32,000 bases of DNA from Candidatus Electronema aureum (lineage in GTDB: Bacteria; Desulfobacterota; Desulfobulbia; Desulfobulbales; Desulfobulbaceae), in NCBI GenBank assembly GCA_004284765.1, contig NQJD01000024.1, forward strand, positions 4,456 through 36,455, read 5' to 3'. The notes under the pieces are model-generated. The model was not told where the DNA came from. It made no database searches and worked only from the letters and a program-made list of their open reading frames with translations. A program made the position numbers and the translations under genes. Positions 13,795 through 30,743 of this stretch are shown here, in pieces (position 1 is the stretch's first letter; each line of letters starts with the position of its first letter).

Positions 13795-14394
13795 ATGGAA
13801 ATTATTGCTTATGGAGAAGATGCTCTTACCTTATGGGCATTGAAAGAAAAACTCCCTGAGATTCTTGAATTACTGGATGACGATTCTAACCCCGCTGACT
13901 GTCAAATATTTTACCGGCCCAGTTTTGGACGTGGCGGTCGTAGCAAGAAGATGTTTGGCGAATTTGACTTTATTCTATTGGCAACGAAGACGCTTTATCT
14001 TGGAGAAAGCAAATGGAAGGGATCAAATGAGAAAATTAAAAATAATATTTTACAATTGCAACCTAATCAGGAGCAAAGACATAGGGTATTCAAATGTTAT
14101 GTCAATGAATGGGCTTTCGGAAATTATCTAAGCTGGCATAAGTTCAAGGGCGAAAAACAAGAATTTTTTGGTGTCGAAATTCCAAATGATAACGATGGAA
14201 TTGCTAGAAATTTACAAACGTTGCTCGGTATAATCAAAAAACATTTTACATCAGAGCCTGTTGTAAACAACGTACTGCTTTTCCTTCACGATGACACTGG
14301 GAAAATTCCTCAGAAAGCAAGTAGCGACTTTATTGTCGTGCCGATAGATTATTCAGAAGCATCTTTTGACAATTTCATTCGGCTCAAGCTGTAG
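13795..14394 (+). CDS. Hypothetical protein with a PD-(D/E)XK nuclease-like motif
   Basis: 199-aa ORF, conspicuously AT-rich compared with both neighbours. The motif is E8 ... D58 (GEFDFILL) ... E71-S-K73 (LYLGESKWKG). No SD sequence is evident. It sits 13 nt after the aroK stop and ends 37 nt before aroC. Confidence 0.55.
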   Translation: MEIIAYGEDALTLWALKEKLPEILELLDDDSNPADCQIFYRPSFGRGGRSKKMFGEFDFILLATKTLYLGESKWKGSNEKIKNNILQLQPNQEQRHRVFKCYVNEWAFGNYLSWHKFKGEKQEFFGVEIPNDNDGIARNLQTLLGIIKKHFTSEPVVNNVLLFLHDDTGKIPQKASSDFIVVPIDYSEASFDNFIRLKL

Positions 14395-23493: not shown

Positions 23494-26316
23494 TTAAGAA
23501 GACTGCAAGCTGCGAATTTTTTCAGCAAACTGCTCAACAGGAAGGGGCTTGCTGAAGTAATACCCTTGTACTTCATGGCATTTTTTTTCTCGAAGAAAGT
23601 CTAACTGCTCCAGTGTCTCCACGCCCTCGGCCACCACTTCCAAATTCAGACTACGAGCCATTTGAATAATTGACGCAACAATTGCAGCATCATCTGAATC
23701 TTTGGTCAAGTCAGCAATAAAAGATTGGTCGATTTTGATACTGTTGACTGGAAATTTCTTCAAATAAGCCAATGAGGAGTAACCCGTGCCAAAATCGTCG
23801 ATGGCGATTCGTATACCGATCTGTCGAATTTCCTGTAAGAGTTCTACGGCCTGTTTCGGATTTTCCATCACCGTGCTTTCGGTGATTTCAAGTTCTAAAA
23901 AGGCGGCAGGTAAGCCAGTCTCTGCTAACGTGTCACGTAACAAGTCGAGGAGTTTACGGTTCTGAAACTGCCGTGACGAGAGATTGACTGCCACCCGATG
24001 CAAACCTAACCCCTGCGCTTCCCAGTCTTTCGCTTGGCGGCAGGCGGTTTTCAGGCTCCATTCACCGAGCGCGGTGATCAAGCCGGTTTCTTCGGCAAGA
24101 GGAATGAACTCTGCCGGAGAAATAATGCCTTCTTCTGGGTGTAACCAGCGCACCAAGGCTTCTGAGCCGACCATTTTTTCATCTGGTAGCGAATATTTAG
24201 GCTGATAATAAAGGACAAACTGTTCGTCGTCCAAAGCATGGCGCAGCTGCTTTTCCAAATTAAGACGCTGCACTAACTGCTCATTCATCTGTGTGCGAAA
24301 ATGCTGAAAGCTCCCTTGCTCGCGCTGCTTGGCAAAGTGCATGGCTGTATCTGCATTTTTGATCAGGGTTTCCGCCTCCAAACCGTCATCAGGATAAATG
24401 CTGATGCCGATGCTGGCGTTGATAAAAATTTCTTCACCGTCAATATGAAAAGGCTGTTGCAGAAGATGAATCATTCGTCGGGCTAAATGACCGGCTGATT
24501 CGCAAAACTTAATTTCAGAAAGTATCACCGTGAATTCGTCGCCACAAAGCCGAGCAACCACATCACTCTTGCGGACACCGCTTCGTATCCGCTTGGCGAC
24601 TTGGGTTAGTAGCTCATCACCCGCTTTATGACCAAGCGAATCATTGACATCTTTAAACCGATCAAGATCAATGCAAAACAAAGCTAACGGAATGTCGTGG
24701 CTTTGGCTGCTGATCATGGCTTGTTCAAGATGTTCTTGAAACAAAGTACGATTCGGCAGTTTAGTCAGTGGGTCGTAAAAAAGTAAATTCTTGAGCTTGC
24801 GCTCGATGTTTTTCTTTTCAGTAATATCATTGAAGATGCCAACATAGTTGACCGTGTTGCCGCTGCTGTCGCGGATAGCACTGATGGTCAGCCATTTTTC
24901 AAAGACCTCACCGTTCTTGCGGCGGTCCCATATCTCACCTGACCAAGAACCGGTTTCGGTCAGCTGTCGCCACATTTCTTCGTAAAAAATTTGATCATGA
25001 TGGCCGGATTTGCAAATACGTGGGTTTTGACCGATAGCCTCATCGCGTTCATAGCCCATGATGAAGGTATAGGCTTCGTTGACATCAAGAATCGTCGCCT
25101 TAGCATCGGTCACCACTACAGCTTCTTCGGCATTTTCGATGATTTTTTGATCTAACCGTAGCTGCTGCTCCAGCTTTCTTCGTTCTGTAATATCGGTCTG
25201 AATGCAGCCCACACAGCCGTTGAATTCACCACTACCCGGCAAAGCAAAACAAGAGGTAAGAAAAGTGCGGGTGCCATTTTCTGAGGAGATGCTTTCTTCG
25301 TATTCTATTACCGTTTCTGACTCTGTGCTGTCATGGGATAATTTTCTGGTCAACTTGGGTAAAATATCGGCGGCAAACTTACCGATTACGTCTTTCTTCT
25401 TAATGCCAAAAAGTTCCTCGAAGCGTCTATTGACCAGAACATAACGGCCTGAAATATCCTTGAGCGTGACAGCGGATGGCGAGTTTTCGATCAAGTCGGC
25501 TAACTGTTTGCGGCCTACAGCTAAATCGTCCCGATGACGACTGAGTTGCTGAATATTGTCTCGACAGCGGGTGAGAAACAAACACAGCAGAGCAAAAAAG
25601 GCAGCCAAACGAAGAACATGCCAGAGCCACCAGACTGCTCCGTACTGAAGAGTAAAGGGAAAGAAACAAGCTGCTGAGGCAAAGAAGAGGCTACATCCAG
25701 CTATAAGCAATGCGTCTCGCTTCTCTGTGCCGCTGCTTTCTCTCAAGAAATGCAATCCGGCTATGAAAAAACAGAGACCACCGCTGATGCTGATGATTTT
25801 GGCGACGGCAAGCGATGCTACTGGTGGAATCAAAGCGGGAGAAAGCAGAAAACCGGTTCCAGGCAGCGAACAGAGGGTAGCAGTCAGGCAAGGCAACCAT
25901 TCGATGAGCGGATGCCGAGCAATCCGTTCCGGCAAACTATGTAGGGTAAATAATAGGCCACCGACCAAGGCAGCGGTGCTGTACAACCAAACAGATGCGA
26001 TAGAGGAGACTGTTCCGCCAGCGTTGAAACCATCTAAAACGCCCATGCCTGCTAACGCGGCAGCAATCCAGACCGTGCGCGGCGCATTTCCCTCTGTATG
26101 CCGGGTGAGCATAATGAAGAGAGAGGAAAGAATGGCTGTAACCGCAGTCCAACCGAGCAGCATGGCTGCCAAAGGTTCATGGATGAATCGCCAAGAGCCG
26201 ATGCAGCAGTGAAGCACAAAGGCCGCACCTGTGGGCAAGAATGCGCCCAGCAGCACCGCCACGCCTATGAGCAGCACGTTTCTTTTCGGCTTCTTGTCAT
26301 CATTCTGGTTGTTCAT
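23494..26316 (-). CDS. Membrane sensor protein with PAS-PAS-GGDEF-EAL domains (c-di-GMP turnover)
   Basis: I trimmed the track ORF to the ATG at 26316 (MNNQNDDKK...), preceded by AAGGAGA. It has about 8 N-terminal hydrophobic segments and two PAS-like regions. The GGDEF domain has the motif CGDEF with an RKSD I-site 5 residues upstream. The EAL domain carries EALVRW, ELEITES, DDFGTGYSSL, KIDQSF, EGVE and QGYYF. Confidence 0.9.
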   Translation of the reverse strand: MNNQNDDKKPKRNVLLIGVAVLLGAFLPTGAAFVLHCCIGSWRFIHEPLAAMLLGWTAVTAILSSLFIMLTRHTEGNAPRTVWIAAALAGMGVLDGFNAGGTVSSIASVWLYSTAALVGGLLFTLHSLPERIARHPLIEWLPCLTATLCSLPGTGFLLSPALIPPVASLAVAKIISISGGLCFFIAGLHFLRESSGTEKRDALLIAGCSLFFASAACFFPFTLQYGAVWWLWHVLRLAAFFALLCLFLTRCRDNIQQLSRHRDDLAVGRKQLADLIENSPSAVTLKDISGRYVLVNRRFEELFGIKKKDVIGKFAADILPKLTRKLSHDSTESETVIEYEESISSENGTRTFLTSCFALPGSGEFNGCVGCIQTDITERRKLEQQLRLDQKIIENAEEAVVVTDAKATILDVNEAYTFIMGYERDEAIGQNPRICKSGHHDQIFYEEMWRQLTETGSWSGEIWDRRKNGEVFEKWLTISAIRDSSGNTVNYVGIFNDITEKKNIERKLKNLLFYDPLTKLPNRTLFQEHLEQAMISSQSHDIPLALFCIDLDRFKDVNDSLGHKAGDELLTQVAKRIRSGVRKSDVVARLCGDEFTVILSEIKFCESAGHLARRMIHLLQQPFHIDGEEIFINASIGISIYPDDGLEAETLIKNADTAMHFAKQREQGSFQHFRTQMNEQLVQRLNLEKQLRHALDDEQFVLYYQPKYSLPDEKMVGSEALVRWLHPEEGIISPAEFIPLAEETGLITALGEWSLKTACRQAKDWEAQGLGLHRVAVNLSSRQFQNRKLLDLLRDTLAETGLPAAFLELEITESTVMENPKQAVELLQEIRQIGIRIAIDDFGTGYSSLAYLKKFPVNSIKIDQSFIADLTKDSDDAAIVASIIQMARSLNLEVVAEGVETLEQLDFLREKKCHEVQGYYFSKPLPVEQFAEKIRSLQSS

Positions 26317-26419: not shown

Positions 26420-26450
26420 AAAAAAACCGGCACCCCGCGAGGGATGCCGG
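26420..26450 (-). terminator. Rho-independent terminator of the globin-cytochrome gene
   Basis: On the minus strand, ccggcatccc-tcgcg-gggtgccgg (one bulge) is followed by TTTTTTT. It lies 35 nt after the stop at 26485. Confidence 0.7.
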
Positions 26451-26484
26451 TTCCGTCACGCCGCCTGTTCAGCGGCCTGTGCGT

Positions 26485-28947
26485 TTACTGTTTGCCGAGA
26501 ACGTCCTTGCGGGCGCTTTCAGCCACTCTGACCGCCACCGCAATCATCTCCTCTTTCACGCCCAGCTCGCGCAGCGCGTCGCCGAAGTGTTTGATGATGA
26601 TGTTGAAGTGGCTGTCATTGAGGCCCTTGTCCTTGACCAGACGGGCATGGGCCGCAGTCAGGTCGCGGCCTTTGTACGGCAGGCTGCCGCCAAAGGCGAA
26701 GTTCATGAACGCCTTCTGCATCCGGCGCTGGGTGTCCATGTCAATGCCTGCGAAGAAGTAGTTGACCGCCGGATCAGCCATGACCTTGTCGTAGAAGAGA
26801 TCAACCGCTTTGCTCACCGCCTCCTCGCCGCCGATCTGCTCATAGAACGCGTCTGCGGCGGTTTTCACACTGTCGCCACGCTCCTGAATCCGGTTTTGGG
26901 TCGGCGCGCCGTGGGTGCTGAAGGTCACGGTCTTGTCAATCATGTCAACGATCGGCAGAGGATCCGGAACCGCCTTGAGGCCGTAAATCTCCTCAAGATC
27001 AAAGCCCTTGGGCAGATTCTCAAAGAGCTTCTTGGCGATCTTCTGGCTGGCCACGCGGAAGCGCAGCCGGGCGTGGAAGGTGATGTTATGCTTCTTCAGG
27101 TCGCTGAGGGTGGAATAATACACATCCCTGTAGCCCTTGGGCGGGATGACATCATGCCGCGAGAAAGAGACAATCTCCCACGGGTCATTCTTGAGGGTCA
27201 TATCATGGCCCATGCCGTCGGAGTTGAACATGTAGGTGTTCTCGTCCAGCTCGCCGTCCTTTTTGAGGAGGCCGCTCTTCAGCACTTCCTTGCCGGTCTC
27301 GTCCTTGGCCACCACTTCCAGCCACATCTGGCGGATGTTGGTCAGCGAGGTGGGCAGGGCGTGACCGCAACGCTCGTTCTTCACCCGCACTTTGATCTTG
27401 CTCAGGTAGCCGTCCTCGCTGTAGATCGGCGTGATCTCCATCTCTGCGGCCAGCTGGAGCCGGGCCACAGCCATGTCGTACTTCAGCTGGGCGTTGTCGG
27501 CCAGCTTCTTGTCGCCCAGCTTCTCAGCCCGCAGCTTCTCCAGCAGATACATAGTGAAGTTGGCGCCGTTGAAGAAATGGCGGTACTCATGCCGCTGCGG
27601 CTTCTGAAAGGTGTCGGCGGAGCGCTTGAAAGTCGGGATGTCAACCATGTGGCAGTCCTGACACTGAATGCCCTTGACCGAGTAGATACCCTTCTTCCAC
27701 TCGTTGTAGGTGTGCTCGATCGGGAAATGCTCTTGGTAATGGAAGACCTGATGGCAGCCCGCGCAAAGTTCAGCCCGCAGATGCAGGGGCGACTCGACGC
27801 ATTCGTGGAAGCCGCCGCCGCAGCCCTCGTAGGGAGGGAAGGGACCGTATTTGGTGCGGACATTCTCGCCTTTGGCGTTCTTATAGCCTGGAGAGAGGAC
27901 ATAAGAGCCGTTCTCCGGCTCGCGGGACGGAGTCTCCCAATGGGTGTGCCGCTTGATCGAATGGCAGACATCGCAGGACACGCCCGCCTTGGTTAGATCA
28001 GTGAGCTTCTTGAAATCAAACTCCTCCGGCATCTGCCCGGAGACAACCGCCGCCGCCGTGTGGCAGCCTTCGCACTGCTTGGTGATCTCCTTGCCCACCG
28101 CCTTCACGCCCAGCGCAAGCTCGCCGAGGTAGATCGGGTCGCGGAAGGCCTGCGCGTGCATAGAACCCTGCCAATCCTCAAATTGCTGGGGATGACAGCC
28201 GCCGCAGGTGAAGACCGAGGGGGTCTCGAAGGGCACGCCCTTGTCCTCAAAGGCGATGTTGGAAGGATAGTATTTGTATTGTTTCTTCAGCGCGTCATGG
28301 TCGTAGCGGGTGTAGGGCACGCTCCAGACATTGGCCAAGTCCTTGTCAATCTCATTGGGATTGTTCGGCACGACACCCACGCCGGGCTTCGGCGGCGAGT
28401 AGGACGAGAGTCCGGCAGGCTTGCTCTGGGCGGGCTTGACTGCTGCGGCATCTGTCTTGCCCAGAATGTCGCCACGAACGCTGTTGGCTACTTTGGCGGC
28501 GTGCGCGATCAGCTCGTCCTTCACGCCAAGCTCTTTCAGCGTGGCACCAAGATGCTCAACAATTACATCAAAATGACTGTCATTAAGGCCGCGTGCGACT
28601 AAATGAGCGTGCGCCGCTTTCAAATCCCGACCCTGATAGGCGTTGGGGCCGCCAAAAGCAAAGGTCAAAAATGCCTTTTGCATGGCAATCTGCCGATTCA
28701 TGTCAACGCCTTTAAAGAAGCCGTTGACCCGACTGTCAGCCAAGACCTTCTTGTAGAAGCCCTTGACAGCGGCATCAATAGCTGGCGCACCGCCGAGCTG
28801 ATCATAGAGTGATTGCTGCTCTTGTCCAATCTGACTTTGTGGGCCGGTCTGATTAGCTTGGTTGGGGTCGCCTGTAAAGGCGGACTGTGCTGTCAGGGCT
28901 AATCCCGCTGTCAGGCAGATAGCTAATCCTGCACGCTTGTTGTTCAT
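26485..28947 (-). CDS. Exported fusion protein: truncated haemoglobin (trHbN) - pentahaem c-type cytochrome - truncated haemoglobin
   Basis: I trimmed the track ORF to the ATG at 28947 (MNNKRAGLAICLTAGLALTAQSAF, a Sec-type signal peptide), preceded by AGGAGGAG. Globin signatures occur at aa 46-164 (28456-28812) and in the last 122 aa (26488-26853). Both show ..Y.QLGG..FY.KV..D....FF...DM..Q...QKAF...AFGG...Y.GRDL..AHA.L...GLNDSHF. The core has five CXXCH motifs at 28192-28206, 28059-28073, 27961-27975, 27751-27765 and 27649-27663. Confidence 0.88.
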   Translation of the reverse strand: MNNKRAGLAICLTAGLALTAQSAFTGDPNQANQTGPQSQIGQEQQSLYDQLGGAPAIDAAVKGFYKKVLADSRVNGFFKGVDMNRQIAMQKAFLTFAFGGPNAYQGRDLKAAHAHLVARGLNDSHFDVIVEHLGATLKELGVKDELIAHAAKVANSVRGDILGKTDAAAVKPAQSKPAGLSSYSPPKPGVGVVPNNPNEIDKDLANVWSVPYTRYDHDALKKQYKYYPSNIAFEDKGVPFETPSVFTCGGCHPQQFEDWQGSMHAQAFRDPIYLGELALGVKAVGKEITKQCEGCHTAAAVVSGQMPEEFDFKKLTDLTKAGVSCDVCHSIKRHTHWETPSREPENGSYVLSPGYKNAKGENVRTKYGPFPPYEGCGGGFHECVESPLHLRAELCAGCHQVFHYQEHFPIEHTYNEWKKGIYSVKGIQCQDCHMVDIPTFKRSADTFQKPQRHEYRHFFNGANFTMYLLEKLRAEKLGDKKLADNAQLKYDMAVARLQLAAEMEITPIYSEDGYLSKIKVRVKNERCGHALPTSLTNIRQMWLEVVAKDETGKEVLKSGLLKKDGELDENTYMFNSDGMGHDMTLKNDPWEIVSFSRHDVIPPKGYRDVYYSTLSDLKKHNITFHARLRFRVASQKIAKKLFENLPKGFDLEEIYGLKAVPDPLPIVDMIDKTVTFSTHGAPTQNRIQERGDSVKTAADAFYEQIGGEEAVSKAVDLFYDKVMADPAVNYFFAGIDMDTQRRMQKAFMNFAFGGSLPYKGRDLTAAHARLVKDKGLNDSHFNIIIKHFGDALRELGVKEEMIAVAVRVAESARKDVLGKQ

Positions 28948-29001
28948 GACTCCTCCTGTTTTGTTGATGAAAAGCACTTTGTTGTAGTACCAACTGCCCC
29001 T

Positions 29002-29031
29002 ATTATAGGGGAGCGCAGGAGAAAAGTACAA
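29002..29031 (-). promoter_or_regulatory. Sigma70-type promoter of the globin-cytochrome gene
   Basis: The minus strand reads A8-T-TTGTAC-N18-TATAAT, with the block GCTCCCCTATAAT identical to the paralogue's promoter. It lies about 55 nt upstream of the ATG at 28947. Confidence 0.55.
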
Positions 29032-29089: not shown

Positions 29090-29129
29090 AAAAAATCCGG
29101 CATCCTCCATAGGAAACAGAGGATGCCGG
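29090..29129 (-). terminator. Rho-independent terminator of the upstream cytochrome paralogue
   Basis: On the minus strand, ccggcatcctc-tgtttcctatg-gaggatgccgg (11-bp perfect stem) is followed by ATTTTTT. It lies 43 nt after the stop at 29172. Confidence 0.75.
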
Positions 29130-29171
29130 ACTTAGACACCAGCGGCAATTACCGCTACTTAGATAGTGCCT

Positions 29172-30743
29172 TTACTTGACAGACTCAGGCGTACCCTTAG
29201 TCTTGATGGTCACAGACTTTTCGGTCATGTCAACCACTGGCACAGCAGGTACAGCAGTAAGGCCGTAGATTTTCCCCAAATCAACACCCTTGGGTTGATT
29301 ACTCAACAGCTTCTCAACCACCGCTTGACTGGCCTGACGGAAACGGAGCTTGGCACTGAACTTGATCTCCTGATCGTCGGACTCATTGACAAGAGTGTAA
29401 TACAGGTCACGATATCCCTTAGGCGGAATGGTGTCATGCCGTGAGAAAGCCACTACGTCCCAAGGATCAAGTTTGAAGCTCAGGTCGTTGCCCATGCCGT
29501 CAGAGTTGAAGTTGTAGGTTTTTGGGTCAAGCTCACCTTTGCTGTCCAAATAACCGCTCTTCAACAGCTCTTTGCCACTGGCATCGGTGATCACCACTTC
29601 AAGCCACATCTGGCGAATATTGGTCAGCGAAGTAGGCAGATTATGGCCCGCCCGCCTGTTATGCACCCGTACTCTGATTTTGGAAAGATCGCCCTTCGCG
29701 TTGTAGAATGGCTCGACTTCCAGTTCAGCAGCAGCTTGCAGCCTTTCCACCGCCATATCAAACTTCTTCTTGGCATTTTCCGCCATCTTGGTGTCGCCTT
29801 CTTTCTTTGCCTTGAGTTCGGCTAAGAAATACTGAACAAAGTTGGCACCGTTAAAATAATGGCGGTACTCGCCCCGCTTGGGCAGAACAAAGCTGTCCGC
29901 AGAACGTTTGAAGGTGTCGATATCAACCATGTGACAATCTTGGCACTGCACGCCCTTGACCGCATAGATGCTTTTCTTCCACTCAGCATAGGTATGTTCC
30001 AGCGGCGTATGCTCCTTGTAATGAAAGACCTGATGACAGCCTGCGCACATTTCCGATGTCCGATGCAGAGGCGACTCCACGCACTCATGGAAACCACCAC
30101 CGCAGCCTTCGTAGTTCGGGAACGGGCCGTATTTAGTCAGCACAGCTTGACCGGTCTTTTCATCTTTCCGGTTTGGAGACAATAAATACGAGCCATTCTC
30201 TGGCTCGCCAGACGGGGTTTCCTGATGAAGCTGTTGTTTGATCGAATGGCAGACATCACAGGAAACACCAGCCTTAGCTAAGGGGCTAAGTTTGTCAAAG
30301 TCAAATTCACCAGCTGTTTCACCCAATAAGAACGCCGCCGGGGTGTGGCAGCCTTCGCACTGCTTGGCAATATCTTTACCCACTGCTTTGACGGCCAGAT
30401 TCAGCTCGCCAAGATAAACCGGGTCTTGAAAGGCCATCGAGTGCATGGAATTCTGCCATTCCTCGTATTGCTGAGGATGACAGCCCGCGCAGGTGGCTAC
30501 TGAAGGCGCGTTGAATTTTGCATCTTCCTTGCTTAGTGCCTCATCTAATTTGAGATGCGAAGGATAATTAGGGAATTTTTTCTTCCACTCCTCCATGTTA
30601 TAGCGGCTGTATGCGGGTACCGCAACCGTAGGTGCGGTAGGAGCTGTCGGTACTTCTGGAGCAGTTTTGGCAAAAGCAGCGGTGGCTGCAAGTGCTGTTC
30701 CTGCGGTTAGGCCAAGAATCAGGCCAATACAATTTCGTGCCAT
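29172..30743 (-). CDS. Exported pentahaem c-type cytochrome (globin-less paralogue of the 26485-28947 core)
   Basis: 523 aa with signal peptide MARNCIGLILGLTAGTALAATAAFA. It has five CXXCH motifs (CAGCH, CEGCH, CDVCH, CAGCH, CQDCH) in the same order and context as the neighbour. Shared blocks include CGGGFHECVESPLH, YRH.FNGANF, GH.LPTSLTNIRQMWLEVV and SRHD.IPPKGYRD. Confidence 0.88.
   Translation of the reverse strand: MARNCIGLILGLTAGTALAATAAFAKTAPEVPTAPTAPTVAVPAYSRYNMEEWKKKFPNYPSHLKLDEALSKEDAKFNAPSVATCAGCHPQQYEEWQNSMHSMAFQDPVYLGELNLAVKAVGKDIAKQCEGCHTPAAFLLGETAGEFDFDKLSPLAKAGVSCDVCHSIKQQLHQETPSGEPENGSYLLSPNRKDEKTGQAVLTKYGPFPNYEGCGGGFHECVESPLHRTSEMCAGCHQVFHYKEHTPLEHTYAEWKKSIYAVKGVQCQDCHMVDIDTFKRSADSFVLPKRGEYRHYFNGANFVQYFLAELKAKKEGDTKMAENAKKKFDMAVERLQAAAELEVEPFYNAKGDLSKIRVRVHNRRAGHNLPTSLTNIRQMWLEVVITDASGKELLKSGYLDSKGELDPKTYNFNSDGMGNDLSFKLDPWDVVAFSRHDTIPPKGYRDLYYTLVNESDDQEIKFSAKLRFRQASQAVVEKLLSNQPKGVDLGKIYGLTAVPAVPVVDMTEKSVTIKTKGTPESVK

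What the first reader, a model, noticed from the sequence alone, without database searches (positions are those of the whole stretch)
26485..28947. Exported globin - pentahaem cytochrome c - globin fusion: 7 predicted haems on one periplasmic polypeptide
The 820-aa product has four parts.

1. A Sec-type signal peptide (MNNKRAGLAICLTAGLALTAQSAF) with no twin-arginine.
2. A group-I truncated haemoglobin domain at aa 46-164. It keeps B10 Tyr (GFYKKVL), E7/E11 Gln (RQIAMQKAF) and the proximal F8 His (KAAHAHL). It closely resembles what I remember of Synechocystis GlbN.
3. A core of about 480 aa with exactly five CXXCH motifs.
4. A second truncated haemoglobin as the last 122 aa, with the same key residues. 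By eye it is about half identical to the first.

In both globins the E10 position is Met. That position is the distal His that hexacoordinates the haem in Synechocystis GlbN.

The architecture places an electron-wire module (five c-haems) between two gas-binding b-haem sites outside the cytoplasmic membrane. This would suit a soluble periplasmic O2, NO or peroxide reductase, or a sensor, that does not depend on haem-copper or bd oxidases. Loading b-haem into a globin that is exported unfolded through Sec is itself unusual.

I recall that cable-bacteria / Desulfobulbaceae genome analyses flagged periplasmic truncated haemoglobins as candidate O2 reductases. I cannot verify whether this exact domain order has been described. 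As far as I know there is no biochemical characterisation.
Basis: partly seen in the sequence, partly recalled or inferred. Interest (0 to 1): 0.9.

Follow-up and report, generated by a model that had tools for sequence, protein, structure and literature searches.

The report
Cable-bacterium globin–pentahaem cytochrome–globin fusion

Summary
Window 26485..28947 (-) encodes an 820-aa protein with these parts:
- a Sec-type signal peptide;
- a group-I truncated haemoglobin;
- a roughly 470-aa core with exactly five CXXCH motifs, made of a helical haem cap and an Ig-like domain;
- a second group-I truncated haemoglobin.

Met sits at E10 in both globins.

The protein is not new. The exact sequence is public as CAK8719420.1 / TAA74525.1 / A0A521G0J7 from Ca. 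Electronema aureum. It is listed by accession as "lPHCtX" in EMBO Rep 2025, with a Sec/SPI signal peptide and proteome detection. Kjeldsen et al. 2019 proposed it as a periplasmic alternative O2 reductase. The papers I could read, up to 2026, report no biochemistry.

What this analysis adds:
- The core is homologous to the Geobacter selenoprotein polysulfide reductase MccSep/ExtKL (hhalign 99.4%). It has Leu and Ile where MccSep has its catalytic Sec and its haem-ligating Cys, and it carries its own invariant Cys/His cluster.
- Met(E10) is invariant in all 38 fused globins examined.
- All domains are under purifying selection. The N-globin is the most constrained (dN/dS 0.01-0.04).
- Globin-less relatives of the core often sit next to rubrerythrin or peroxiredoxin genes.

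Verdict: already known. The anatomy is correct and the function is still a hypothesis.

The parts
26485..28947 (-). lPHCtX gene: 820 codons plus stop, encoding globin, pentahaem cytochrome c and globin
   Evidence: ORF list and translation. The exact protein is public as CAK8719420.1 / TAA74525.1 / A0A521G0J7 and is listed as lPHCtX in Dataset EV1 of PMC11976967.
28876..28947 (-). Sec-type signal peptide, aa 1-24 (MNNKRAGLAICLTAGLALTAQSAF). The exact cleavage site is uncertain.
   Evidence: Lys4/Arg5 are followed by a hydrophobic stretch. The AF2 model has a helix at aa 2-19 and then disorder. The published SignalP call is SP(Sec/SPI). There is no RR motif.
28453..28815 (-). N-terminal group-I truncated haemoglobin, aa 45-165. 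Key residues: Tyr65 B10, Gln86 E7, Met89 E10, Gln90 E11, His113 F8.
   Evidence: Pfam stretch aa 46-160. Match to GlbN at E 4e-31. Residue table. pLDDT 85-95. dN/dS 0.010-0.038.
28312..28452 (-). Pro/Ala-rich linker, aa 166-212, predicted disordered
   Evidence: pLDDT below 50 at aa 169-196 and 203-212. dN/dS about 0.4.
27448..28311 (-). Helical five-haem cap of the large pentahaem cytochrome (lPHC) core, aa 213-500
   Evidence: Five CXXCH motifs. Pfam Cytochrome_C554. Foldseek match to 5ZE8 at E 2.4e-13. hhalign to the MccSep family at 99.4%.
28192..28206 (-). CXXCH 1 (CGGCH, aa 248-252)
   Evidence: Invariant in the 82-sequence alignment A1. Aligns to MccSep haem 1.
28060..28074 (-). CXXCH 2 (CEGCH, aa 292-296). 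This is the equivalent of the catalytic haem 2 of MccSep.
   Evidence: MccSep haem 2 has His122/Cys239 ligation.
27961..27975 (-). CXXCH 3 (CDVCH, aa 325-329)
27799..27828 (-). lPHC-specific invariant motif EGC376-GGGF-H381-E-C383 (aa 374-383). His389, His403 and His407 lie just downstream and are also conserved.
   Evidence: Listed as invariant columns. These residues have no His/Cys counterpart in MccSep: C376 falls in an insert, H381 aligns to Pro, C383 and H389 to Met, H403 to Glu and H407 to Pro.
27751..27765 (-). CXXCH 4 (CAGCH, aa 395-399)
27649..27663 (-). CXXCH 5 (CQDCH, aa 429-433), followed by invariant Met434
26893..27447 (-). Ig-like beta-sandwich domain, aa 501-685. It carries the motif R-C527-G-H529-A-L-P-T-S-L535.
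   Evidence: DSSP strands at aa 501-677. The GHxxP motif is shared with T. tepidum c552 and MccSep. Leu535 aligns to Sec325 of MccSep.
26860..26892 (-). Short linker, aa 686-696, predicted disordered
   Evidence: pLDDT below 50 at aa 686-696.
26488..26859 (-). C-terminal group-I truncated haemoglobin, aa 697-820. Key residues: Tyr719 B10, Gln740 E7, Met743 E10, Gln744 E11, His767 F8.
   Evidence: Match to THB1 (4xdi) at E 6.8e-35 over aa 697-818. Foldseek match to 6cii with TM 0.89. Residues. dN/dS 0.13-0.26.
28952..28957 (-). Ribosome-binding site AGGAGG, 6 nt upstream of the ATG. A TATAAT at 29002-29007 is a candidate -10 box.
   Evidence: Read directly from the sequence. The promoter is inferred only.
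29093..29133 (-). Intrinsic terminator (18-bp stem plus T-run) between the upstream lPHC gene and the fusion gene
26423..26454 (-). Intrinsic terminator (14-bp stem plus T-run) directly after the fusion gene
29172..30743 (-). Tandem paralogue: a globin-less lPHC of 523 aa with its own signal peptide and 5 CXXCH, 64% identical to the core of the fusion
   Evidence: It is 100% identical to P0036 of Ca. Electronema aureum and is listed together with the fusion in Dataset EV1. The tandem arrangement is kept in L129.
23494..26316 (-). Downstream neighbour, not part of the unit: a membrane PAS-PAS-GGDEF-EAL protein
   Evidence: Pfam hits. A terminator separates it from the fusion gene. It is syntenic in two close Electronema relatives, L049 and L129, but absent from the fusion loci L046-L048.

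Best explanation
**What it is (shown)**

This is the lPHCtX protein of the freshwater cable bacterium Candidatus Electronema aureum GS. It is a Sec-exported, soluble periplasmic polypeptide.
- It has a large pentahaem cytochrome c core, made of a helical five-haem cap and an Ig-like stem. This is the PHC fold shared with T. tepidum c552 and Geobacter MccSep/ExtKL.
- Each end of the core is tethered by a disordered linker to a group-I truncated haemoglobin.
- The prediction is therefore 5 covalent c-haems plus 2 non-covalent b-haems.

**How it most likely works (inferred, and identical to the published hypothesis)**

1. In cells exposed to oxygen, electrons arrive from the periplasmic conductive fibres or from small periplasmic cytochromes.
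2. They enter the c-haem chain of the core and are passed to the globin b-haems. Possibly they also reach the core's own haem-2 pocket.
3. The globin pockets (TyrB10, GlnE7, GlnE11) bind O2 and reduce it to H2O2 or H2O.
4. No proton is translocated. The protein acts as a non-energy-conserving electron sink.

**A possible role for Met(E10)**

The invariant Met at E10 may ligate the ferrous b-haem, giving a redox-linked His/Met to five-coordinate switch. This would tune the potential and gate ligand access.

**Confidence**

The figure of 0.5 refers to the functional part. The identity and architecture are near certain.
For: **Identity**
- The exact sequence is in public databases under Ca. Electronema aureum, and the neighbouring gene is 100% identical to a protein of that organism.
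- It is listed by accession as lPHCtX, with SP(Sec/SPI) and proteome detection.

**Architecture**
- Supported.

**Periplasmic location**
- There are five invariant CXXCH motifs on the same chain.
- c-haem attachment takes place on the periplasmic side (established knowledge of Ccm/System I-II).
- No hydrophobic segment separates the domains.

**Both globins are functional**
- The haem-pocket residues are invariant in 38 fused globins.
- dN/dS is 0.01-0.26.

**Link to O2**
- Most cable bacteria lack canonical oxidases, yet they reduce O2 fast and without energy conservation. All of them encode a periplasmic truncated haemoglobin, which is fused to the pentahaem cytochrome in several species.
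- Every fused form that carries an organism name comes from Electronema, Electrothrix or a cable-type 'Desulfobulbus sp. TB'.
- Globin-less lPHC genes in other anaerobes neighbour O2/peroxide-defence genes far more often than chance would give.
  - Rubrerythrin is the commonest Pfam family among 201 flanking genes (6 hits), and AhpC-TSA has at least 3 hits.
  - A flavodiiron-like cluster occurs in 3 loci, and one locus has peroxiredoxin plus rubredoxin.

**Met(E10)**
- E10 is the iron ligand in GlbN (His46) and THB1 (Lys53).
- The THB1 K(E10)M variant shows Met ligation in the ferrous state only.
Against: - There is no biochemical or genetic test of the protein in the papers I could read, up to mid-2026.
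- The electrocatalysis precedent cited in the literature is Bacillus subtilis trHb, which is a group II globin, not group I.
- The closest characterised group-I relatives (THB1, M. tuberculosis HbN) are NO dioxygenases (own knowledge).
- Other O2-reduction candidates exist in cable bacteria: the CydA homologue, small cytochromes, and Cox or CydABX in some species.
- Met(E10) does not ligate the iron in Shewanella benthica HbN.
- The relative position of the domains is not predicted with confidence (pTM 0.62, disordered linkers). Haem-to-haem distances could not be measured.
- The neighbourhood signal for lPHC is present in only about 14% of loci.
Confidence: 0.5

Rival explanations
1. It is a periplasmic NO dioxygenase or NO detoxifier with a built-in reductase. 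The oxy-ferrous globins convert NO to nitrate, and the fused c-haem core re-reduces the ferric globins. This would be a periplasmic, cytochrome-powered analogue of flavohaemoglobin.
For: - The best solved relatives are group-I truncated haemoglobins: THB1, GlbN, the Tetrahymena globin and M. tuberculosis HbN.
- The TyrB10/GlnE7/GlnE11 pocket is conserved.
- THB1 and HbN are known NO dioxygenases that need an external reductase (own knowledge; THB1's link to nitrogen metabolism appears in the title cited).
- Cable bacteria carry Nap and a periplasmic octahaem nitrite reductase, so NO can arise in the periplasm.
Against: - The reaction needs O2 and NO together.
- It does not explain why the fusion is confined to organisms that lack terminal oxidases.
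- The neighbours of lPHC point to peroxide/O2 defence rather than to nitrogen-oxide genes.
- No nitrogen-oxide genes lie next to the gene in the window or in L046-L048.
Confidence: 0.15
2. The core is the enzyme and the globins are accessories. Catalysis would occur at haem 2 of the PHC core, for example reduction of peroxide, O2 or another small oxidant. The tethered globins would deliver, buffer or scavenge O2 or NO, or protect the site.
For: - The core is homologous to the enzyme MccSep, whose active site is haem 2 (hhalign 99.4%, E 2.5e-20).
- lPHC keeps invariant residues of its own (C376, H381, C383, H389, H403, H407). They flank the haem-4 motif, next to the stretch that supplies the haem-2 distal ligand in MccSep.
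- The core is very conserved, at 53-66% identity across Desulfobulbales, Desulfuromonadales and Nitrospirota.
- The core occurs alone in most organisms, often beside rubrerythrin or peroxiredoxin.
- The EMBO Rep authors class lPHC as potentially catalytic, with a pentacoordinate haem.
Against: - There are enough conserved histidines for all five haems to be bis-His.
- No coordinates were available to check whether haem 2 has an open site.
- The N-globin is the most constrained domain of all (dN/dS 0.01-0.04). That fits poorly with a mere accessory.
Confidence: 0.15
3. It works at the anodic (sulfide-oxidising) side. The ferric globins would bind and oxidise sulfide, or the core would act on polysulfide. 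Electrons would flow out through the c-haems to the conductive fibres.
For: - The core is homologous to a polysulfide reductase.
- Its closest solved structure, T. tepidum c552, has been suggested to act in sulfur metabolism.
- A conserved 115-aa DsrE-like gene follows the fusion gene in both Ca. Electronema halotolerans and Ca. Electrothrix laxa.
- Truncated haemoglobins can bind sulfide tightly, and ferric globins can oxidise it (own knowledge).
Against: - Both MccSep catalytic residues are replaced: Sec325 by invariant Leu535 and Cys239 by Ile410.
- NCBIfam ExtKL scores 32.6 bits against a cut-off of 250.
- The DsrE-like protein has no signal peptide. It is absent from the window and from L048.
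- The neighbours of lPHC are oxidative-stress genes, not sulfur genes.
Confidence: 0.07
4. It is an O2/NO/redox sensor that signals to the adjacent PAS-GGDEF-EAL protein.
For: The PAS-PAS-GGDEF-EAL membrane protein lies directly downstream on the same strand. That order is kept in two close Electronema relatives.
Against: - The protein has no transmitter domain.
- A 14-bp-stem terminator separates the two genes.
- The neighbour is absent from the fusion loci of E. halotolerans, E. laxa and another Electronema MAG.
- Five c-haems are not needed for sensing.
Confidence: 0.03

Closest known systems
lPHCtX, the 'cytochrome-truncated haemoglobin fusion' of cable bacteria (Kjeldsen et al. 2019 PNAS, as cited in PMC11976967 and PMC7875522; named in EMBO Rep 2025)
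   Same: It is the same protein. CAK8719420.1 / TAA74525.1 / A0A521G0J7 is listed under lPHCtX, and its neighbour CAK8719425.1 is listed with it. The architecture, the predicted Sec export and the proposed role as periplasmic O2 reductase are all the same.
   Different: Nothing differs in the object itself. The extra points here are the profile-level homology to MccSep with loss of Sec/Cys, the invariance of Met(E10), the per-domain selection, and the neighbourhood statistics. I did not see these in the papers I could read. Kjeldsen 2019 itself was not available to me.
Geobacter sulfurreducens MccSep / ExtKL (GSU2937-2936; PDB 9WT8-9WTC), a pentahaem selenoprotein polysulfide reductase
   Same: - It has five CXXCH in the same order, a helical cap plus an Ig-like stem, and the shared GHxxP motif and Met after haem 5.
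- hhalign gives 99.4% over 376 columns.
   Different: - The catalytic Sec325 is Leu535 here, and the haem-2 ligand Cys239 is Ile410.
- The core is larger (about 470 aa against about 425 aa) and has inserts that include the CGGGFHEC motif.
- The NCBIfam ExtKL model scores 32.6 bits against a cut-off of 250.
- MccSep has no globins.
Thermochromatium tepidum low-potential pentahaem cytochrome c552 (PDB 5ZE8)
   Same: It is the best solved structural match to the core: Foldseek E 2.4e-13, TM 0.71 normalised to the target, 478 columns. The profile hit is E 1.2e-10 and includes the GH..PT motif.
   Different: - Identity is only 17%.
- c552 has no globins.
- Its function is also unknown.
Gsu2801 (Q749E2) and other globin-less lPHC proteins of Desulfobulbales, Desulfuromonadales and Nitrospirota
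   Same: They belong to the same lPHC subfamily. Hits of 473-540 aa are 53-66% identical to the core and all carry 5 CXXCH. The tandem paralogue in the window is one of them.
   Different: They have no globin domains. The equivalence to Gsu2801 is taken from the paper and was not tested here, because the AFDB library was unavailable.
Group-I truncated haemoglobins: Chlamydomonas THB1 and Synechocystis/Synechococcus GlbN
   Same: - They share the 2-on-2 fold, at 43-52% identity.
- TyrB10, PheCD1, GlnE7, GlnE11 and HisF8 are all conserved.
   Different: - E10 is Met here, against Lys53 in THB1 and His46 in GlbN, both of which ligate the iron.
- There is no His117 equivalent for the covalent haem link of GlbN.
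- The globins here are exported and fused to a cytochrome, whereas THB1 and GlbN are free cytosolic proteins.
Flavohaemoglobin (Hmp), a functional analogue only
   Same: It is a globin fused to its own electron-supply module on one polypeptide (own knowledge).
   Different: - The reductase module is FAD/NAD(P)H-dependent and cytoplasmic.
- The globin is of the 3-on-3 type.
- There is no homology to the cytochrome core.
E. coli cytochrome b562, a precedent only
   Same: It is a Sec-exported periplasmic protein that binds non-covalent haem b with His/Met ligation (own knowledge).
   Different: It has an unrelated four-helix-bundle fold. It is an electron carrier, not a gas-binding globin.

Membership tests
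Group-I truncated haemoglobin (trHbN, TrHbN-1) | 2-on-2 globin fold | tested here: met
   The AF2 domains have pLDDT 85-95. Foldseek TM-scores to THB1, Tetrahymena and Paramecium trHbN are 0.88-0.89.
Group-I truncated haemoglobin (trHbN, TrHbN-1) | Proximal His F8 and the distal pocket TyrB10 / PheCD1 / GlnE7 / GlnE11; Gly-Gly hinge motifs | tested here: met
   - N-globin: His113, Tyr65, Phe78, Gln86, Gln90.
- C-globin: His767, Tyr719, Phe732, Gln740, Gln744.
- Hinge motifs: LGGAP and FGGPN in the N-globin, IGGEE and FGGSL in the C-globin.
Group-I truncated haemoglobin (trHbN, TrHbN-1) | Closer to group I than to groups II or III | tested here: met
   Group I structures score E 1e-35 to 1e-16. 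Group II structures (HbO, YjbI, the Thermobifida and Geobacillus globins) score 1e-4 to 1e-2. The database name 'YjbI' is a generic COG label.
Group-I truncated haemoglobin (trHbN, TrHbN-1) | Binds haem b | not testable with these tools
   This needs purified protein and a pyridine haemochrome assay or mass spectrometry.
lPHCtX / PHC family of cable bacteria (EMBO Rep 2025) | Large pentahaem cytochrome domain with five CXXCH plus an Ig-like domain, structurally similar to 5ZE8 | tested here: met
lPHCtX / PHC family of cable bacteria (EMBO Rep 2025) | One or two terminal truncated-haemoglobin domains on the same chain | tested here: met
   Both termini carry a globin.
lPHCtX / PHC family of cable bacteria (EMBO Rep 2025) | Listed member / cable-bacterial origin | tested here: met
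   An exact-sequence look-up returns the Ca. Electronema aureum accessions. The same accessions appear in Dataset EV1 under lPHCtX.
MccSep / ExtKL polysulfide reductase | Five CXXCH, helical cap and Ig-like stem (shared fold) | tested here: met
   hhalign gives 99.4%, E 2.5e-20, with all five motifs aligned.
MccSep / ExtKL polysulfide reductase | Conserved Sec/Cys at position 325 (D-G-U-P loop) | tested here: not met
   It aligns to Leu535, which is invariant in 82 lPHC sequences. All 28 rebuilt MccSep homologues have U there.
MccSep / ExtKL polysulfide reductase | Distal Cys239 ligand of haem 2 | tested here: not met
   It aligns to Ile410, a position where the lPHC consensus is Leu (57%), followed by Glu411. 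No Cys lies nearby. Alignment in this loop could be off by a few residues, but the nearest conserved candidates are His403 and His407, not Cys.
MccSep / ExtKL polysulfide reductase | NCBIfam NF040886 equivalog cut-off (250 bits) | tested here: not met
   The score is 32.6 bits.
NrfA-type pentahaem nitrite reductase | CXXCK catalytic haem motif and membership of the Cytochrom_C552 family | tested here: not met
   There is no CXXCK motif. Pfam PF02335 does not hit the fusion protein, and it hits the paralogue only at E 0.0069, below the cut-off.
Globin-coupled sensor | Globin fused to a transmitter domain (MCP, GGDEF, kinase, CheW) | tested here: not met
   Pfam finds only globin and cytochrome domains. 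Real CheW-, Hpt- and MCP-globin fusions exist among distant relatives, but this protein is not one of them.

The most novel reading that the evidence does not exclude
The protein may not be, or not only be, the cathodic O2 reductase. It may be a sulfur-side enzyme. In this reading the ferric Met(E10) globins capture and oxidise sulfide, or the MccSep-derived core handles polysulfide. Electrons would leave through the c-haems into the conductive fibres. The protein could therefore run in either direction, depending on where the cell sits in the sediment. This fits the observation that cable-bacterial cells switch between anodic and cathodic roles within minutes, without new gene expression.
Probability: 0.07. 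Interest if true: 0.85.

Novelty: already known. Interest (0 to 1): 0.3.

Why it matters
How cable bacteria get rid of electrons on oxygen is an open question in electromicrobiology. Most of them have no haem-copper or complete bd oxidase, and this fusion protein is the leading candidate. If confirmed, it would be a soluble, haem-only, non-energy-conserving terminal oxidase, which is an unusual kind of enzyme.

The finding itself adds nothing to what is published. The window simply contains the type example. The side results sharpen the experiments that should be done:
- The core descends from the same stock as a characterised enzyme, the polysulfide reductase MccSep, but it has swapped out that enzyme's catalytic residues.
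- Both globins carry an invariant Met at the position that ligates iron in their closest characterised relatives.
- Globin-less relatives of the core keep company with rubrerythrin and peroxiredoxin genes in other anaerobes.

Tried and rejected
**Tools or sources that were unavailable**
2. Kjeldsen et al. 2019 could not be read by PMC id or DOI. Its content is cited through later papers.
3. Model coordinates are not exposed. Globin-to-c-haem distances and the coordination of haem 2 could therefore not be measured.

**Ideas tested and rejected**
4. I considered that the low-GC3 5' part of the gene (signal peptide plus N-globin) was recently transferred from another Electronema, because P0005 has a 99% identical N-globin but only a 78% identical core.
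   - This was rejected. Nucleotide identity in that stretch is only 73-87% and dS is about 1.2.
   - The pattern reflects very strong purifying selection, not recent exchange.
   - The composition step itself stays unexplained.
5. I considered the DsrE-like gene as a conserved partner. It is present in L046 and L047 but absent from the window and from L048, and it has no signal peptide.
6. I considered P0194 as evidence for a second widespread cytochrome-globin family. It is a singleton, and about 120 relatives lack the globin.
7. I considered the longer TTG start (848 aa). It was rejected in favour of the ATG with a ribosome-binding site, which matches the public annotation.
8. I considered a lipoprotein signal at Cys11. 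It was rejected because only 3 hydrophobic residues precede the Cys and -1 is Ile. The Cys is also absent in Electrothrix homologues.

**Searches with no result**
9. I looked for organism names for the stand-alone exported globins. None are recorded.

Full report

Yes. The gene is on the minus strand.
- The mechanical ORF runs 26485..29031 from a TTG. The ATG at 28947 has an AGGAGG 6 nt upstream and gives the 820-aa product that public databases also record.
- Pfam finds Bac_globin (E 4e-33, two stretches) and Cytochrome_C554 (E 8.8e-11, aa 247-330).
- There are exactly five CXXCH motifs, at aa 248, 292, 325, 395 and 429, and no CXXCK.
- A sequence search of solved structures puts both globins in group I. 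The C-globin (aa 697-818) matches Chlamydomonas THB1 at E 6.8e-35. The N-globin (aa 46-156) matches Synechocystis GlbN at E 4e-31. Group II globins reach only 1e-4 to 1e-2.
- Against GlbN numbering, both domains keep TyrB10, PheCD1, GlnE7, GlnE11 and HisF8. Both have Met at E10 (Met89 and Met743).
- The two globins are 55.6% identical to each other.
- The AlphaFold2 model has mean pLDDT 82.8. It shows three confident bodies: globin aa 45-165, core aa 213-685, and globin aa 697-820. Disordered linkers (aa 169-212 and 686-696) join them, and an N-terminal helix (aa 2-19) fits a signal peptide.

**2. Is it an artefact?**

No.
- The exact protein is on four contigs, one of them 2.94 Mb long.
- The same globin-core-globin order occurs in at least seven further proteins from NCBI, JGI and Logan assemblies (P0001-P0006, P0126). 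Each of P0001-P0006 has five CXXCH.
- Codon-level comparison with three homologous genes shows purifying selection on every folded part. dN/dS values are in the table below.

| Region | dN/dS |
|---|---|
| N-globin | 0.010-0.038 |
| Haem cap | 0.05-0.13 |
| Ig-like domain | 0.17-0.31 |
| C-globin | 0.13-0.26 |
| Linkers | about 0.4 |

**3. What is it?**

It is the published lPHCtX protein of Ca. Electronema aureum GS.
- The upstream gene (29172..30743, 523 aa) is 100% identical to a Ca. Electronema aureum protein.
- Dataset EV1 of EMBO Rep 2025 (PMC11976967) lists these two accessions under 'lPHCtX'. It records structural homologues TtLPC (5ZE8), Gsu2801 and ExtKL, a SignalP call of SP(Sec/SPI), and detection in the proteome.
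- The paper says the architecture was first described by Kjeldsen et al. 2019. There it was proposed as an alternative periplasmic terminal oxidase that takes electrons from the periplasmic conductive fibres.
- Later papers repeat this as a hypothesis.
- A January 2026 preprint on cable-bacterial O2 reduction still treats it as one of several untested candidates.

So the finding is correct but already known.

**4. Surroundings**

- The gene is its own transcription unit. An 18-bp-stem terminator follows the upstream lPHC gene (29133..29093). A 14-bp-stem terminator follows the fusion gene (26454..26423).
- Upstream lies the globin-less paralogue (64% identical core, own signal peptide).
- Downstream lies a membrane PAS-PAS-GGDEF-EAL protein.
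- The order lPHC, fusion, PAS-GGDEF-EAL is kept in two close Electronema relatives.
- In Ca. E. halotolerans, in another Electronema MAG and in Ca. Electrothrix laxa, the fusion gene sits in unrelated neighbourhoods.
- The rest of the window is housekeeping: IleRS, FtsY, Lon, AroK, AroC, GlgA and others.

**5. Distribution of the architecture**

| Form | Length | Where found |
|---|---|---|
| Globin-core-globin | about 808-825 aa | Where an organism is named, only Electronema |
| N-globin-core | about 688-703 aa, one of 756 aa | Unnamed metagenome sequences close to Electronema |
| Core-C-globin | about 623-684 aa | Both Electronema and Electrothrix |
| Globin-less core | 473-540 aa, 53-66% identical | Widespread: Desulfocapsa, Desulfuromusa, Desulfobulbaceae, Nitrospirota and others |

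- In a neighbour-joining tree (no support values), the Electronema N-globins group with the Electrothrix C-terminal globins. The Electronema C-globins form a separate clade. This suggests the globin modules have been moved or fused more than once.
- Stand-alone trHbN proteins with hydrophobic N-terminal leaders that look like signal peptides exist in metagenomes. Examples are P0146 (82% identical to the N-globin, Met at E10) and P0170. An exported haem-b globin is therefore a small class rather than a one-off.
- One unrelated tetrahaem cytochrome with a C-terminal trHbN (P0194) was found. It is a singleton among about 120 globin-less relatives.

**6. The core is more than a wire**

- Its best solved structural match is the T. 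tepidum pentahaem c552 (Foldseek E 2.4e-13, TM 0.71 normalised to the target).
- The literature search also turned up MccSep, which is Geobacter ExtKL. It is a pentahaem selenoprotein polysulfide reductase. Its haem 2 is His122/Cys239-ligated, and Sec325 reaches in from the Ig-like domain.
- I rebuilt 28 MccSep homologues from genome contigs by reading through the TGA codon. All carry AGHxIPDGUPTPNR.
- I compared that family with the lPHC alignment by hhalign. The result was probability 99.4%, E 2.5e-20, over 376 columns.
- All five CXXCH motifs align, as do His264, His336, His529 and Met434.
- Sec325 aligns to Leu535, which is invariant in lPHC. Cys239 aligns to Ile410.
- NCBIfam's ExtKL model scores 32.6 bits against a cut-off of 250.
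- lPHC also has its own invariant residues with no His/Cys counterpart in MccSep: Cys376, His381, Cys383, His389, His403 and His407. They flank the haem-4 motif, next to the stretch that supplies the haem-2 distal ligand in MccSep.

The core therefore shares the fold and ancestry of a known enzyme, is not a member of that enzyme family, and may have a different active site at haem 2. The EMBO Rep authors also class lPHC among potentially catalytic cytochromes. I could not test haem coordination, because model coordinates are not exposed.

**7. A hint at what lPHC does elsewhere**

- I collected 80 metagenome loci and 4 genome loci with lPHC genes, most of them globin-less. I reduced them to 63 non-redundant loci and scanned the 201 genes within two positions of the lPHC gene against Pfam.
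- Neighbourhoods are otherwise unrelated. The most frequent family is Rubrerythrin (6 genes), and AhpC-TSA has at least 3.
- BLAST clustering also shows a flavodiiron-like protein in 3 loci.
- Single cases add peroxiredoxin plus rubredoxin (Desulfocapsa) and OsmC plus rubrerythrin-encapsulin (Desulfuromusa).
- Such genes are a fraction of a percent of an anaerobe's genome (own estimate). This looks like a real, though modest, association with O2/peroxide defence, seen in about 14% of loci.

**8. The Met at E10**

- It is invariant in all 38 cytochrome-fused globin domains.
- It occurs in only 43 of 364 globin domains (12%) among the 150 nearest cluster representatives. Lys (36%) and His (15%) are the common residues there.
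- E10 is the endogenous sixth ligand in GlbN (His46) and THB1 (Lys53).
- A JBC 2025 paper notes that E10 ligation can aid electron transfer. It reports that the THB1 K(E10)M variant shows Met ligation in the ferrous but not the ferric state, whereas Met(E10) of Shewanella benthica HbN does not ligate.
- A redox-linked His/Met to five-coordinate switch in these globins is therefore a reasonable and directly testable inference. It is not a result.

**9. Mechanism**

Best explanation (function about 0.5, identity near certain):
- It is a periplasmic, non-energy-conserving electron sink.
- Electrons from the conductive fibres or from small cytochromes enter the c-haem chain.
- They reach the tethered globin b-haems, and perhaps the core's haem-2 pocket, where O2 is reduced.

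Shown:
- the architecture;
- the export signal;
- purifying selection on all domains;
- restriction of the fusion to cable bacteria;
- expression, taken from the literature.

Inferred:
- b-haem loading;
- the electron path;
- the substrate;
- the product.

Rivals:
- NO dioxygenase with a built-in reductase (0.15). The nearest characterised globins are NO dioxygenases.
- The core as the real enzyme with the globins as accessories (0.15).
- A sulfur-side or bidirectional role (0.07). The homology to MccSep and the DsrE-like neighbour in two genera speak for it. The loss of Sec/Cys and the oxidative-stress neighbours speak against it.
- A sensor (0.03).

**10. Verdict**

- Novelty: already known.
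- Interest is low to moderate (0.3). The biology is remarkable and unresolved, but this finding adds no new object. The side results are incremental leads for experiments.

Noticed in passing
window 26485-28947 (-), with a step near 28470 (about aa 150-165): There is a sharp codon-composition step inside the fusion gene.
- The signal peptide plus N-globin have GC3 of about 0.55, like the upstream lPHC gene (0.55) and the other neighbours (0.47-0.51).
- The core plus C-globin have GC3 of about 0.81, like the housekeeping genes at 1-20 kb (0.73-0.80).
- Homologous genes in L049, L129 and L048 are uniform.
- The cause is unknown. Recent transfer of the 5' module was tested and rejected.
   Followed up: partly
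window 28453-28815 (-), compared with L129:2212-4638 and L049:16-2460: - The N-globin is 99% identical in protein to the L129 homologue but only about 85% identical in DNA (dS about 1.2, dN/dS 0.010).
- It is by far the most constrained part of the protein.
- dS differs about 3-fold between the N-globin and the C-globin.
   Followed up: yes
L046:9150-9497 (+) and L047:9082-9429 (+): - A 115-aa DsrE/DsrF-like protein lies directly downstream of the fusion gene in Ca. Electronema halotolerans and Ca. Electrothrix laxa.
- The two copies are 67% identical, carry a GACRxCS motif and have no signal peptide. The surroundings are otherwise unrelated.
- The gene is absent from the window and from L048.
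   Followed up: partly
L002, L003 and the metagenome loci L049-L128: Globin-less lPHC genes have no fixed partner. They are flanked unusually often by rubrerythrin (6 of 201 neighbours), AhpC/peroxiredoxin (at least 3), flavodiiron-like proteins (3 loci), rubredoxin and OsmC.
   Followed up: partly
window 27799-27828 (-) (aa 374-383), and aa 526-535 at 27343-27372 (-): - The lPHC-specific motif EGC-GGGF-H-E-C, together with His389, His403 and His407, has no His/Cys counterpart in MccSep.
- It could form a disulfide, a metal site or part of a haem-2 pocket.
- Cys527 in 'RCGH' is Ala in the family consensus.
   Followed up: partly
L007:6001-7335 (+) (P0194, GCA_029260735.1): - This is an unrelated exported tetrahaem c554-type cytochrome with a C-terminal group-I truncated haemoglobin. 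The globin is 57% identical to the N-globin and has Lys at E10.
- It is a singleton. About 120 relatives from Chthoniobacterales, Acidobacteriota and Ca. Uabimicrobium lack the globin.
- It may be an independent fusion or an assembly artefact.
   Followed up: partly
proteins P0146, P0170, P0184, P0245, P0218: - These are stand-alone group-I truncated haemoglobins of 162-196 aa with hydrophobic N-terminal leaders that look like signal peptides.
- P0146 is 82% identical to the N-globin, and P0146 and P0170 have Met at E10.
- They are probably the 'split' periplasmic globins of other cable bacteria, but no organism names are recorded.
   Followed up: partly
globin tree: The Electronema N-terminal globins cluster with the Electrothrix C-terminal globins. 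The Electronema C-terminal globins form a separate clade. The globin modules seem to have been fused or moved more than once. The tree is neighbour-joining without support values.
   Followed up: partly
proteins P0127-P0274: - The nearest globin relatives include proteins with up to 13 tandem trHbN domains (P0127, 1882 aa).
- They also include fusions of trHbN to CheW-like, Hpt-like and MCP-like N-terminal parts, judged by sequence only (P0198, P0238, P0271, P0223, P0262, P0199).
   Followed up: no
window 13795-14394 (+): A 199-aa ORF with very low GC (0.377, GC3 0.35) and no Pfam hit is wedged between aroK and aroC, which have GC of 0.57-0.63.
   Followed up: no
window 23494-26316 (-), L049:2696-4504, L129:5177-5485: The membrane PAS-PAS-GGDEF-EAL gene downstream of the fusion gene is conserved in position in two other Electronema assemblies, at 75-77% identity. 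A terminator lies between the two genes in the window.
   Followed up: partly
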